Shown here piece after piece: positions 34,044 to 37,340 of a stretch of DNA of 64,000 nt. Origin of the DNA: the human T2T-CHM13v2.0 reference genome, Homo sapiens. The translations under genes and the position numbers were made by a program. A model generated the notes under the pieces. That model was given only the letters and a program-made list of their open reading frames with translations. It ran no database searches and was not told the origin of the DNA. The stretch is taken from contig CP068257.2 of assembly GCA_009914755.4 (NCBI GenBank), positions 31,456,001 to 31,520,000 on the forward strand, given 5' to 3'. Each line of letters starts with the position of its first letter. Position 1 is the stretch's first letter.

Positions 34044-34095
34044 TCCCCGCCATGCCCAGAGCCAGCTCCCAGGTGACCCTGGCCCATGGGATGGC
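34044..34095 (+). repeat. Partial copy (about 52 bp) of the local low-copy repeat also found at 35.68 kb and 37.09 kb
   Basis: TCCCCGCCATGCCCAGAGCCAGCTCCCAGGTGACCCTGGCCC is identical to 35678-35719. Confidence 0.8.
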
Positions 34096-34894
34096 GTCTC
34101 CTGCCAAGGACACAGGGCTCCCCTCCCCGGGGCAGTTTGTGGCAAAGCTGGAGCTGGTTTCAGTGTTGAGACACCCCTCCCTCCCCCACTGCTTTCACCG
34201 GATAGTGTTTCCATTTCTTTCTGGGTTCCTCTTCCATCCTCTTGGCTCCACTCCTGCAATTCGCACATGGCCCTCATGGGCCACCGTACCCTGCACCCTA
34301 CATGTCCTTTTGCAGTATCACCTGCCTTCACTTGACTGATTCTCTCACTCTTCCAATTCCAATCCCCACAAGAAGAATTTAGAGGGTCCCACTCATCTTT
34401 TCAAGTTAGGAAAACCAGTCAAAAATTATCAGCAGGTGGTATAGACAGCAGCCATTTAAGCCTATTATGGGGCGGTGGGTGGGCAGGCCATGACTGACAC
34501 CTCTAGCAACCAATGAGATTGAGGAAAGAGACTCTTCTGCCTTCCAATTGGTCAGCACTGCTCTTAAAGGCCCTGAGCTGACCAGACGCTGTCCTCCCAC
34601 CTCGCAGGTGGAGAGGGACCCTGGGGCCAGTGGAATGTTTGGCTCTATTTTCTGCGACTAAAATATAATTGTATTTGTCTGTGATCTAGAAAGTACATGA
34701 CTTTTTTTCCCATAGCTACTTTATTATCAGCTGTAAGTCATAGCAACCATGACCCAAGTCATTTTTGTACGTTTATCTTGTTTTTATTACTAATACCAGT
34801 GCTTTACCTACATACAGTCTCTTACCTTTGACAAATTCTTTCACACATGCTAATTTGGATAATATACGAAATGAAGCGTATCTTATTCTCTCCT

Positions 34895-34995
34895 TTCCAT
34901 AGAGAAAGAAATGAAGCTCAGAGAGGTTGAGTAATTTGCCCAAGGTCACACAGCTAGAAAAGTGAGACCGGGATTAGAACCCAATTTTTTGGACT
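34895..34995 (-). mobile_element. MIR fragment
   Basis: GAAATGAAGCTCAGAGAGGTTGAGTAATTTGCCCAAGGTCACACAGCTAGAAAAGTGAGACCGGGATTAGAACCCAA versus MIR ..GATGAGGAAACTGAGGCTCAGAGAGGTTAAGTGACTTGCCCAAGGTCACACAGCTAGTAAGTGGCAGAGCCGGGATTCGAACCCAG. Confidence 0.75.
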
Positions 34996-35677
34996 CTTAA
35001 GTCAGCCCTCCTTACATGTTTTTGAACGTTTTATGGAGTATTCAGAAAAATATTTCCCGAATAAATGAGATCTCACTTTCCCCTCTCTCTCATGTTTTCC
35101 ATTTTGGAAATCTTTACAGTTTAAGGGTCAAGATAGTAGATAAAGTTTTTTAAAAAATAAACTTTCCACAAGTGCAGAAGTAAAATTTCTTAATAAATAG
35201 GAAAAGATTCAGGACAGATAATATGAATACACTGATGAAACAATAACTTATAAGATGGGCCTGGCAAGAAGTAAAAGTGTCCCACATAAATTCTCACTGT
35301 TGAAGGAATGCCCCATCATTACAGCAGAGGGGGTCATAGACACAGGCTTTATGCCTCGTGCTGAATGTCTAACCGCACGCAGAGTTGGTGCCCCATAGAC
35401 AGAGCCTCTCACCCCTCCCCAGCCTCTGTGCAATGCAGACGGCTGTGTCTGTCCTCTCTGGCCTCTGAGAAGAGATGAGTGACCCAAAAGGATAAGCTGG
35501 CTTTGGACTCTGTCCTCCTCTGGGGTATCAGAACTAGGTAAAAACCCTCCTGCATCTTGAATGTGGTGGCTCTGGGGACACTCTGGGCCCACATCCTTGC
35601 TTCTGGCCACATTTTTATGGTTCTGAAACTTATCACTGTGTGGCAGTTTGCCAGAGAATGAGGAGAACGGGGTCATG

Positions 35678-35930
35678 GGGTCCCCGCCATGCCCAGAGCC
35701 AGCTCCCAGGTGACCCTGGCCCTGTGAACAAAGTTCACACTAAAACAAGGAAGAGCTTTCCTGCCCCACCTCTCTTCTCATATTTGGGGCCAGTCGGGTG
35801 GGGAGAAAACTTCTTACCACATGCAGCCTGTGTACTCCGGTCTGGTGGGATAGCAAGGTCCTGCTGTGCACAGGTCAGGCCCCGGGTGTCCTCCTGCCCT
35901 CCACCCAGCCACTGACAAATAGAGCTTTCC
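35678..35930 (+). repeat. Local low-copy repeat unit (about 250 bp), direct copy. Inverted partner at 37088-37340.
   Basis: About 90% identity to the reverse complement of 37088-37340 by eye. The six-frame track gives the same peptide on opposite strands: ..TKTRKSFPAPPLFSYLGPVGWGE..HAACVL.SGG.ARSCCAQVRP.VSSCPPP.H at 35640-35915(+) and 37091-37402(-). Confidence 0.85.
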
Positions 35931-36431
35931 TTTGTTTTGCCCTGTGACCAAAGTTCTTATATGCCTTAAAGGGGAAAGAGATTTTTTCTTATACAAAATC
36001 ACCCAGAAGCCATTCAAGGCAAACAACTCACCCAAGGGCAATCAGGAAACTGCTGACAGAGGCCAGCCAACCAGAACCAGGGTCCCTGGGCACTGGGTGC
36101 AGAGCCCAGTACCCTGAGGAAGCTGCCATCAAAGGAGTGACTCATCCCAAATGATGTCGGCATTGACCAATGAAAACAAAAGCTGAGGTAGAGAAACTGT
36201 CAGAGGGGCCTTACCTTTCCAAGCCTGGGTACCAACACTCTGAGTCCTCATTGGATCTTCTTTTGAAGACCGACCCCTGCAGGGAGACCCTCGATGAGTA
36301 AAAAATATATAAACAAATATAAACAGGTCAGTGAGCCGACCAATCACATCTTACATCCGATGGGATAAAGCCAGTGTGTCAGGGCTGGCCATGGGCTCAA
36401 AAATGTGTGGGTAAGAATTAATGTGGAATCA

Positions 36432-36740
36432 TGCTGGGCTTGGTGGCTCAGGCCTGTAATCCCAGCACTTTGGGAGGCCGAAGTGGGCAGATCACTTGAA
36501 GCCAGGAGTTCAAGACCCCCCTGCCCTACATGGGGGAAACCCCATCTCTACTAAAAATACAAAAATTAGCCAGGTGTGGTGGTGCAGGCCTATTAATTAA
36601 TCCCAGCTACTTGGGAGGCTGAGGCAGGAGAATTGCTTGAACCTGGGAGGCAGAGGTTGCTGCAGTAAGCTGAGATTGTGCCACTGCACTCCAGCCTAGG
36701 CAACAGAGTGAGACTCTGTTTCAAAAAAAAAAAAAAAAAA
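36432..36740 (+). mobile_element. Alu (AluS-like), lying in the spacer of the inverted repeat
   Basis: TGCTGGGCTTGGTGGCTCAGGCCTGTAATCCC ... to poly-A. Perfect 18-bp TSD AAGAATTAATGTGGAATC at 36412-36429 and 36740-36757. Confidence 0.95.
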
Positions 36741-37087
36741 GAATTAATGTGGAATCCACACATGTTGAATCAGAAAAATTTTGTACTGCCCTACCTCCCT
36801 TTAGCAAAGGAGGACAGGACAATGAAGAATCTATTGGCAAAGCAGAGAAAACAGGCTATATCGCTTGCCAAGCCCCTGGAATTCTGAGAAGGTGCTTCTC
36901 CTGTGATAGCGGTCACTGGTACGGCAAGAGGTTGACAATCCCTGGCCAAAACTCCGAAGGGGGTGGCATGTTTCTGCAGAAACGCAGCAGAGGGTCAGGT
37001 ACCCCAAATGCACCCTCCTTCCTGGTAGCAAGCAGGGTCCCCCGCTGGAAGAGCTGCCTGTTTGGGGCAGGTTTTCTAAATATTAAA

Positions 37088-37340
37088 ATGTCAGTGGCCG
37101 GGTGGAGGGCAGGAGGACACCTGGGGCCTGACCTGTGCACAGCAGGACCTTGCTACCCCACCAGACTGCAGTACACAGGCCGCATGTGGTAAGGTTTCTC
37201 CCCACCCAACTGGCCCCAAATATGAAAAGAGAGGTGGGGCAGGAAAGCTCTTCCTTGTTTTGGTGGCAGGCAAGTGTCTGTGGTCAGGAGCCATGGAGAC
37301 TCGTGCCACGGACTGCGAAGCCACCCAGCCATCTGGCCCA
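37088..37340 (-). repeat. Inverted copy of the 35678-35930 repeat unit
   Basis: GTCAGTGGCCGGGTGGAGGGCAGGAGGACACCTGGGGCCTGACCTGTGCACAGCAGGACCTTGCTACCCCACCAGACTGCAGTACACAGGCCGCATGTGGTAAG..CCCCAAATATGAAAAGAGAGGTGGGGCAGGAAAGCTCTTCCTTGTTTTGGTG is the reverse complement of the 35.7-kb copy. Confidence 0.85.

What the first reader, a model, noticed from the sequence alone, without database searches (positions are those of the whole stretch)
34044..37340. Local low-copy repeat in direct plus inverted arrangement (about 250-bp arms, 1.15-kb spacer holding an Alu), with internal periodicity
Seen: 35678-35930 on the plus strand and 37088-37340 on the minus strand are about 90% identical inverted copies. 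The ORF track shows the same peptides encoded on opposite strands. A third 52-bp piece at 34044-34095 is identical to the start of the 35.68-kb copy. The short motif GAGCTT(T/G)..TTTTGCCCTGTGA(A/C)CAAAGTT recurs at both ends of the unit (35700-35760, 35920-35960, 37340-37385), so the unit itself looks tandemly arranged. I do not recognise it as a standard interspersed repeat family. An Alu with a perfect 18-bp TSD (36432-36740) sits in the spacer, which means the spacer already existed when that Alu inserted. Inference: a local segmental duplication or inversion, or several copies of an uncharacterised low-copy element. The inverted arms could form a hairpin or cruciform and promote local inversion polymorphism.
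Basis: seen in the sequence. Interest (0 to 1): 0.5.

Follow-up and report, generated by a model that had tools for sequence, protein, structure and literature searches.

The report
Small local inverted duplication, primate DNA
A 180-base stretch of Alu-rich primate DNA was copied in reverse orientation 1.2 kb away, and a 42-base piece was copied 1.6 kb away; this is most likely an ordinary, non-functional scar of DNA replication or repair.

Summary
The core observation is real but smaller than described. The inverted arms are 180 and 177 nt, at 35738-35917 (+) and 37089-37265 (-). They differ by 9 substitutions and two small indels (about 94% identity) and are 1171 nt apart. They are not about 250 nt: the flanks show no homology. 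The direct piece is an exact 42-mer (34044-34085 = 35681-35722), not 52 nt. The Alu and its 18-bp target-site duplication are confirmed.

Copy A is bracketed by an 18-nt direct repeat (GCCCTGTGA[A/C]CAAAGTTC). The junction flanks share more exact 10-14-nt patches than chance gives (5 against 0.24 expected). There is no tandem array and no extended periodicity.

No other copy of either block lies in the 64-kb window. Nothing matches Rfam or Pfam, and the 103-aa ORF across arm B has no protein relatives.

The AluS in the spacer is about five times more diverged than each arm, so it predates the copying.

Best reading: a fossil of local templated copying (template switching or break-repair synthesis), probably neutral. 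Which locus received the copies cannot be settled without outgroup genomes. Membership of a named repeat family could not be tested, because no RepeatMasker or Dfam tool was available. Cruciform formation or recombination-driven inversion is unlikely. Pairing of the arms in a transcript is possible. Interest is low.

The parts
34044..34085 (+). P1: exact 42-nt direct repeat copy (TCCCCGCCATGCCCAGAGCCAGCTCCCAGGTGACCCTGGCCC). It follows an A8 run directly.
   Evidence: It is 42/42 identical to 35681-35722, and the flanks on both sides are unrelated.
35681..35722 (+). P2: second copy of the 42-mer. Its last 4 nt (GCCC) overlap Q1.
35719..35736 (+). Q1: 18-nt direct repeat GCCCTGTGAACAAAGTTC on the left of arm A.
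   Evidence: It matches Q2 at 17 of 18 positions.
35738..35917 (+). U_A: inverted-repeat arm A, 180 nt.
35918..35938 (+). 21-nt stretch between arm A and Q2 (AATAGAGCTTTCCTTTGTTTT). It contains an 11-mer, AGAGCTTTCCT, that is also present at 35752-35762. Its last 7 nt, together with the first 7 nt of Q2 (35932-35945), form a 14-mer shared with 37362-37375.
35939..35956 (+). Q2: 18-nt direct repeat GCCCTGTGACCAAAGTTC on the right of arm A.
36431..36738 (+). AluS-type element with an A18 tail, in the spacer. Its 18-bp target-site duplications lie at 36413-36430 and 36739-36756. It is older than the arm duplication.
   Evidence: Non-CpG divergence is 6.0% from an AluSx consensus written from memory. 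It fits AluSx better than AluJo or AluY.
37089..37265 (-). U_B: inverted-repeat arm B, 177 nt. It follows TTAAAA directly.
37282..37390 (+). Patch-rich right flank of arm B. It holds exact short matches, in direct orientation, to pieces of the A locus: GGTCAGG, CCACCCAGCCA, GGAAGAGCTT, TTGTTTTGCCCTGT and CCCAGAGCCAGC.
   Evidence: The chain of matches has p < 0.002 against shuffles. With 7-mer seeds, 0 of 898 real-sequence controls reach it.

Best explanation
The structure is a non-functional fossil of local templated copying in a primate germ line. During replication or break repair, a growing DNA strand left its template. It copied short stretches from sequence within about 1.7 kb, one of them from the opposite strand, and then returned. 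This kind of event is described as template switching of the FoSTeS/MMBIR type, or as synthesis-dependent filling of a double-strand break.

The result is a 180-nt block present twice in inverted orientation, a 42-nt block present twice in direct orientation, an 18-nt duplication bracketing arm A, and several 10-14-nt exact patches at the junctions.

Shown: the blocks, their abrupt boundaries, the junction patches, and the greater age of the Alu. Inferred: the mechanism, that one complex event rather than several produced the structure, and which locus is the recipient. I slightly favour 35681-35938 as a 258-nt mosaic insert.

Today the pair probably does nothing in DNA. If the region is transcribed, the arms would pair into a duplex of about 175 bp.
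For: 1. The homologous blocks end abruptly and the flanks show no residual similarity. These are copy breakpoints, not decayed ends of a larger duplication.
2. All partners lie within 3.3 kb, in both orientations, and there is no further copy in the 64-kb window.
3. At locus A the pieces abut. P2 overlaps Q1 by 4 nt (GCCC). One base separates Q1 from U_A. A 21-nt stretch built partly from local sequence joins U_A to Q2. Independent events landing this precisely together would be very unlikely.
4. The junction flanks share exact 10-mers with the blocks far more often than chance: 5 observed against 0.24 expected, reached in 0 of 300 shuffles. The chain 35873-35945 ~ 37282-37375 has p < 0.002.
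5. The patches are perfect 10-14-mers separated by unrelated bases. This is the pattern expected from repeated short templated synthesis, not from an evenly decayed old paralogue (inference).
6. The AluS in the spacer is 6.0% diverged at non-CpG sites. The arms differ at 4 non-CpG sites out of about 167. If the arms were as old as the Alu, about 20 differences would be expected (Poisson P about 2e-5, my calculation). The copy was therefore made across a spacer that already existed.
7. There is no sign of function. Rfam gives nothing outside the Alu. Pfam gives nothing. The ORF across arm B has no protein relatives. The unit alone is not unusually structured (z from -1.9 to +0.6).
8. Template switching that creates inverted copies of nearby sequence is documented in human and great-ape genomes (PMC5453318).
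Against: - No outgroup or population data could be consulted. The ancestral state, the direction of copying and the single-event claim are all untested.
- Both loci carry mosaic features: Q1/Q2 and the 21-nt stretch at A, and the patch-rich flank at B. No single simple scenario explains everything.
- The documented short-range template switches are tens of bases long and lie within one replication fork. Their model explicitly leaves out long-range and multi-round events. This case, 180 nt copied over 1.2 kb, is larger.
- Junction microhomology is modest: 4 nt at P2/Q1, and possibly CAC at Q1/U_A.
- A named repeat family could not be ruled out.
- A weak collinear similarity upstream of the two P copies (33859-33913 ~ 35544-35597, p about 0.006-0.009) hints at an older paralogy.
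Confidence: 0.58

Rival explanations
1. The blocks are older local paralogues whose cores were homogenised by gene conversion. The sharp high-identity patches (42 nt at 100%, 180 nt at 94%) would then be conversion tracts inside otherwise decayed duplicates.
For: There is a weak collinear alignment upstream of P1 and P2 (33859-33913 ~ 35544-35597; p about 0.006-0.009). A weak, non-significant collinear alignment lies downstream (34176-34221 ~ 35893-35938; p = 0.22). The direct chain between the A 3' part and the B right flank could be an old diverged copy.
Against: The arms are inverted, yet their flanks show no inverted similarity at all. No offset is enriched in the diagonal histogram. The short matches are perfect blocks rather than evenly diverged sequence. 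Relaxed blastn finds nothing else.
Confidence: 0.15
2. U and P are fragments of a named interspersed repeat, such as an LTR or MER family, that I could not recognise. The cluster would then be one rearranged insertion or a coincidence.
For: No repeat library could be searched here. Arm A has TIR-like ends (AAAACAAGGAAGAGCT / AGCTTTCCTTTGTTTT; about 15 of 17 with gaps, by my hand alignment of the ends printed) and a flanking 18-nt direct repeat.
Against: There is no other copy in the 64-kb window. There is none in 194 kb of human contaminant DNA fetched as a control. Exact 23- and 24-mers are absent from both large collections, but this bounds copy number only weakly. Two independent insertions would not share identical 180-nt boundaries. 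Pairwise divergence of 5-6% would require a very young family. By general knowledge, the few families active that recently in primates are L1, Alu, SVA and some ERVs, and this sequence resembles none of those I know. Arm B lacks both the TIR-like end and the direct repeat. An 18-bp duplication fits no DNA-transposon superfamily, and DNA transposons were extinct in anthropoids by about 37 Myr ago (general knowledge).
Confidence: 0.12
3. This is an L1-mediated retrocopy, or an RNA-templated patch, of a local transcript: a templated sequence insertion of class 1 or class 2.
For: Arm A is bracketed by an 18-nt duplication of target-site-duplication size, the same length as that of the nearby Alu. 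Such insertions are known in human genomes (PMC5110952).
Against: There is no poly(A) or poly(T) tract at either end of the insert in either orientation. There is no polyadenylation signal and no clear TTTT/A nick site at the duplication (sequence). The P2 block fused to Q1 is not explained. Donors 1.2-1.6 kb away in cis fit DNA templating better.
Confidence: 0.05
4. The duplicated unit is functional: an unannotated exon or small ORF, a regulatory module, or a locus selected to produce double-stranded RNA.
For: One frame is open through both arms. The two indels sum to 3 nt and so keep that frame. Substitutions in that frame split 4 synonymous to 4 non-synonymous (my count). P carries a Kozak-like CCGCCATGC followed 21 nt later by CAG|GTGACC. 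The arms would form a duplex of about 175 bp in a single transcript.
Against: There are no protein relatives, no Pfam family and no Rfam family. The 4:4 split is not significant (binomial P about 0.13, my estimate). An open 60-codon frame in G+C-rich DNA is unremarkable. No conservation or expression data are available.
Confidence: 0.05

Closest known systems
Short-range template-switch mutations (four-point model; Loytynoja & Goldman 2017, PMC5453318)
   Same: [quoted passage not shown] This creates a new inverted repeat with abrupt boundaries that can pair as a hairpin in RNA. No selection needs to be invoked.
   Different: Those events are typically tens of bases long and lie within one replication fork. 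The model excludes long-range and multi-round switching. Here the inverted block is 180 nt, copied over about 1.2 kb, and it comes with a direct 42-nt block from 1.6 kb away plus several small patches.
FoSTeS/MMBIR complex rearrangements and templated insertions at repaired breaks
   Same: Several templated pieces from nearby sequence are joined in both orientations, with short overlaps and filler at the junctions and a small duplication of the recipient site.
   Different: Those described in patients and tumours usually span kilobases to megabases. This is a sub-kilobase, fixed or ancient germline example, and its ancestral state has not been seen.
Templated sequence insertion polymorphisms (Onozawa & Aplan 2016, PMC5110952)
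   Same: A short stretch copied from elsewhere is inserted, and class 1 insertions carry a target-site duplication.
   Different: Class 1 needs a poly(A) tail, a polyadenylation signal and a TTTT/A site, none of which is seen here. Their donors are distant and RNA-derived, whereas here the donors lie 1.2-1.6 kb away in cis.
Inverted Alu pairs
   Same: Two inverted repeat arms of a few hundred bases, a few percent diverged, that can pair in single-stranded DNA or in RNA.
   Different: The arms are not Alu and not a dispersed family as far as could be tested. The 1171-nt spacer puts the pair in the range considered stable in duplex DNA (PMC10164571).

Membership tests
Segmental duplication (low-copy repeat) | At least 1 kb long with at least 90% identity | tested here: not met
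   The blocks are 180/177 nt at about 94% identity and 42 nt at 100%. The flanks are unrelated.
Tandem repeat or minisatellite | Head-to-tail array of a unit | tested here: not met
   Tandem Repeats Finder finds no array in 33500-38000 apart from trivial A/T-rich ones. No diagonal is enriched.
Interspersed repeat family (LTR, MER, SINE) | Many dispersed genomic copies matching a library consensus | not testable with these tools
   There is no Dfam, RepeatMasker or primate genome search. Weak indirect evidence against: no other copy in the 64-kb window, none in 194 kb of human contaminant DNA, and 0 exact hits in two large collections.
DNA transposon / MITE | Terminal inverted repeats plus a target-site duplication of family-typical length (2-10 bp) around every copy | tested here: not met
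   Arm A has TIR-like ends (about 15 of 17 with gaps, by hand alignment of the ends printed) and an 18-nt direct repeat. Arm B has neither. Eighteen bp fits no superfamily (general knowledge).
L1-mediated retrocopy (class 1 templated sequence insertion) | Target-site duplication | tested here: met
   Q1 and Q2 are 18 nt and match at 17 of 18 positions around arm A. There is none around arm B or P1.
L1-mediated retrocopy (class 1 templated sequence insertion) | Poly(A) tail, upstream polyadenylation signal, and TTTT/A insertion site (PMC5110952) | tested here: not met
   The insert ends are ACACTAAAAC... and ...CCTTTGTTTT. No A- or T-run abuts the duplication in the required position.
Short-range template switch (four-point model) | A fragment copied in reverse complement from nearby sequence, creating a new inverted repeat | tested here: met
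   A 180-nt reverse-complement copy lies 1171 nt away with abrupt ends.
Short-range template switch (four-point model) | A single switch-and-return within one fork, demonstrated against an ancestral sequence | not testable with these tools
   No outgroup sequence is available. The extra direct block and the patches suggest more than one switch, which the model does not cover.
FoSTeS/MMBIR-type complex rearrangement | Several templated segments from nearby sequence, joined in both orientations | tested here: met
   The P (direct), Q (direct) and U (inverted) blocks and the 10-14-nt patches all have partners within 3.3 kb.
FoSTeS/MMBIR-type complex rearrangement | Microhomology at the breakpoint junctions | tested here: inconclusive
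   There is a 4-nt overlap (GCCC) at P2/Q1 and possibly CAC at Q1/U_A. The other junctions show filler rather than overlap, and the ancestral sequences are unknown.
Cruciform-forming or fragile inverted repeat | Long, near-identical arms with a short spacer | tested here: not met
   The spacer is 1171 nt, identity is 94%, and the longest perfect run is 35 nt. Instability falls with distance and divergence (PMC10164571).
Alu (the spacer element only) | Dimeric 7SL-derived sequence of about 300 nt with an A-tail and a target-site duplication | tested here: met
   Both monomers give sub-threshold SRP (7SL) RNA hits in Rfam. It aligns to an AluSx consensus at 245 matched positions. It has an A18 tail and an 18-bp target-site duplication.

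The most novel reading that the evidence does not exclude
The 258-nt block at 35681-35938 is the product of one germline event. That event stitched together a direct 42-nt copy from 1.6 kb upstream, an 18-nt re-copy of the recipient site, an inverted 180-nt copy from 1.2 kb downstream, and a filler made of local patches. A matching patchwork lies beside the donor arm. This would be a clean mid-scale example of multi-round template switching, in the size gap between the tens-of-bases events catalogued in ape genomes and the kilobase-to-megabase rearrangements seen in patients. It would also have created a new long RNA duplex.
Probability: 0.35. Interest if true: 0.3.

Novelty: new member of a known kind. 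Interest (0 to 1): 0.12.

Why it matters
It matters little by itself. If outgroup genomes confirm a single multi-patch event, it would be a tidy textbook example of replication or repair template switching. It would show a non-Alu inverted repeat, and so a potential long double-stranded RNA, being made in one step at a scale (180 nt over 1.2 kb) that current short-range scans deliberately leave out. Otherwise it is a neutral structural scar in Alu-rich non-coding DNA.

Tried and rejected
- I looked for a tandem or periodic structure and for an old 1.6-kb tandem duplication. Both are rejected. Only weak local hints remain.
- I searched for other copies. There are none in the window. Exact 23- and 24-mers are absent from metagenome and prokaryote-genome collections. 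A control with an Alu 23-mer shows that human contaminant DNA is present there (at least 120 stretches), so absence gives only a weak upper bound on copy number, roughly tens of thousands of copies by my estimate. Blastn against those contaminant loci found nothing.
- I tried to reach primate orthologues through the protein collection with the 103-aa ORF across arm B. There were no hits at all, so spurious ORFs from primate DNA are not held there and that route is closed.
- Known RNA families gave nothing outside the Alu. Pfam on seven local ORFs gave nothing.
- L1-mediated retrocopy and MITE readings are rejected on missing defining features.
- I prepared a concatenated ORF query to name the locus. 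I did not run it, because gene identity would not change the verdict and the search is expensive.
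Full report
**What the window is.** The 64-kb window is primate DNA with a very high Alu load. A from-memory AluY consensus hits about 35 full-length Alus, covering 15.5% of the window. 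The only Rfam match at the gathering threshold is an Alu-derived SRP hit. No long convincing coding ORF was seen. The region of the finding is ordinary non-coding sequence at about 46-51% G+C.

**Checking the observation.**
- The inverted repeat is real and far beyond chance (blastn E = 6e-72). Its true extent is 35738-35917 on the plus strand against 37089-37265 on the minus strand.
- The arms are 180 and 177 nt and differ by 9 substitutions plus a 1-nt and a 2-nt indel. Five substitutions are CpG-type transitions and four are not.
35640-35737 does not resemble the reverse complement of 37266-37450 (score 16; 127 of 300 shuffles score as high). The inner flanks do not match either.
- The direct piece is an exact 42-mer, 34044-34085 = 35681-35722, not 52 nt. 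Its flanks differ immediately on both sides.
- The Alu lies at 36431-36738 with an A18 tail and a perfect 18-bp target-site duplication.
- The shared peptides on opposite strands follow simply from the inverted copy.

**Fine anatomy.**
- At locus A the pieces abut. P2 (35681-35722) overlaps by GCCC an 18-mer, Q1 (35719-35736). One base later U_A begins. After U_A come 21 nt (35918-35938), then Q2 (35939-35956), which matches Q1 at 17 of 18 positions.
- The 21-nt stretch contains an 11-mer found at the start of U_A. Its last 7 nt, together with the first 7 nt of Q2, form a 14-mer (35932-35945) that recurs at 37362-37375.
- The right flank of arm B (37282-37390) holds, in direct orientation, exact matches to the end of U, the start of U, that 14-mer and the P block.
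- These short matches are more than chance. Junction windows share five exact 10-mers with each other or with the blocks, against 0.24 expected, and 0 of 300 shuffles reach this. The collinear chain 35873-35945 ~ 37282-37375 is reached by 0.2% of shuffles with 6-mer seeds. With 7-mer seeds no shuffle and none of 898 real-sequence controls reach it.
Tandem Repeats Finder finds no array. No offset is enriched in a 7-mer diagonal histogram. Relaxed blastn finds nothing further.

**Age and order.**
- The spacer Alu fits an AluSx consensus (written from memory) best. It has 14 non-CpG mismatches (6.0%), and nearly all its CpGs have decayed.
- The arms differ at 4 non-CpG sites out of about 167. That is 2.4% pairwise, or about 1.2% per arm.
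- If the arms were as old as the Alu, about 20 such differences would be expected. The Poisson probability of 4 or fewer is about 2e-5 (my calculation).
- Barring gene conversion, the Alu was already in place when the copy was made. The copy was written across an existing spacer of about 1.2 kb. It did not start as a tight palindrome that was later split.
- Zero differences in the 42-mer are compatible with the same age as the arms (about 2.4 expected, P about 0.09, my calculation).

**What it is not.**
- No RNA family matches outside the Alu, even at E up to 1.
- No Pfam family matches in seven local ORFs.
- The ORF spanning arm B has no relatives among 5.8 billion proteins.
- The unit folded alone is not unusually stable (z from -1.9 to +0.6).
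- It is not an L1-mediated retrocopy. Arm A has a duplication of the right size, but there is no A-tail, no polyadenylation signal and no TTTT/A site (criteria from PMC5110952).
- It is not a convincing MITE. Only arm A has TIR-like ends and a flanking repeat, and 18 bp fits no superfamily.
- A named dispersed family could not be tested directly. Indirect evidence against it is weak: there is no other copy in the window or in 194 kb of human contaminant DNA, and there are no exact hits in two collections that demonstrably contain human DNA.
- The stronger argument is internal. Two independent insertions would not share identical 180-nt boundaries, and 5-6% pairwise divergence would require a family as young as the youngest primate elements.

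**Mechanism.**
- The best-supported reading is local templated copying, either by template switching at a stalled or broken fork or by synthesis-dependent repair of a break. It would have used donors within about 1.7 kb, one of them on the opposite strand.
- This explains the abrupt boundaries, the mixed orientations, the exact abutment of the pieces at locus A, the duplicated 18-mer, and the perfect short patches separated by unrelated bases.
- Template switching that creates inverted copies of nearby sequence is established for human and ape genomes, at smaller scale and for single switch-and-return events (PMC5453318). The multi-round, longer-range version is the FoSTeS/MMBIR class, which those authors explicitly set aside.
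- The direction is unresolved. Locus A looks like a 258-nt mosaic insert, but the right flank of arm B is also a patchwork of A-locus pieces.
- A weak collinear similarity upstream of the two P copies (p about 0.006-0.009) leaves room for an older paralogy with gene conversion.

**Consequences.**
- In duplex DNA a 1171-nt spacer, 94% identity and a longest perfect run of 35 nt make cruciform extrusion or recombination-driven inversion unlikely. Instability from inverted repeats falls with spacing and divergence, except in long single-stranded regions (PMC10164571).
- In a single transcript the arms would pair. In the minimum-free-energy fold of 35700-37300, 170 of the 180 arm-A bases pair with arm B. 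Cofolding the arms gives -365 kcal/mol against -136 for shuffled controls.
- Whether the region is transcribed is unknown.

**Verdict.** This is a real but ordinary small local inverted and direct duplication with complex junctions, most likely a neutral scar of template switching. The tandem reading and the cruciform/inversion inference are not supported. Interest is low. Outgroup alignment and a repeat-library search would settle the open points.

Noticed in passing
One 8.6-kb 'Roseivirga' MAG contig carries five Alu matches on both strands, and several other contigs of the same MAG match too. These look like human contamination of deposited prokaryote assemblies.
   Followed up: partly
window 33520-33730 and 34880-34990: Two MIR-like elements in opposite orientations flank the P1 copy. 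I recognised them by eye from the ...CTCAGTTTCCTTCTCTGTAAAAT... and ...GCTCAGAGAGGTTGAGTAATTTGCCCAAGGTCACACAGC... cores. A 29-nt match links 34933-34961 to 16424-16452.
   Followed up: no
window 34036-34043 and 37083-37088: Both P1 and arm B start immediately after an A-run (ACAAAAAAAA| and ATATTAAAA|). The geometry does not fit priming from an L1 endonuclease nick, and I have no explanation for it. It could mark polymerase pausing or strand dissociation at homopolymers.
   Followed up: partly
window 35738-35917 / 37089-37265: The two indels between the arms (1 nt and 2 nt, five bases apart) sum to 3 and keep one reading frame open through both copies. Substitutions in that frame split 4 synonymous to 4 non-synonymous. 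This is not significant, and the ORF has no protein relatives.
   Followed up: partly
window 35687-35712 (and 34050-34075): The 42-mer contains a Kozak-like CCGCCATGC followed 21 nt later by CAG|GTGACC, which looks like a miniature first coding exon with a splice donor. At 34052 this ATG opens a 95-aa ORF with no Pfam match.
   Followed up: partly
window 34505-34550, 36155-36165, 36338-36348: Several CCAAT-box-like motifs occur (AACCAATGAG, CCAATTGG, GACCAATGAAAA, GACCAATCACA). ACCAATGA...GAGG..AGAGA(A)ACT recurs at 34508 and 36157, an offset (1649) close to that of the P copies (1637). The diagonal test found no supported extended paralogy.
   Followed up: partly
window 36970-36983: A perfect 14-nt palindrome, GTTTCTGCAGAAAC, lies in the spacer about 100 nt left of arm B.
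   Followed up: no
window 30055-30098: An imperfect (AC)22 microsatellite.
   Followed up: yes
window 21850-22350: A short G+C-rich and CpG-rich stretch (54-56% G+C over 21-23 kb, dense in CpG around 21.9-22.1 kb). It could be a small CpG island or promoter. No coding exon was recognised.
   Followed up: no
window 32863-33010: One Alu (32727-33014) is the only element in the window to reach Rfam's gathering score for metazoan SRP RNA (72 bits against 70), although it is only 77.5% identical to the AluY consensus. This shows how Alus can cross that threshold.
   Followed up: no
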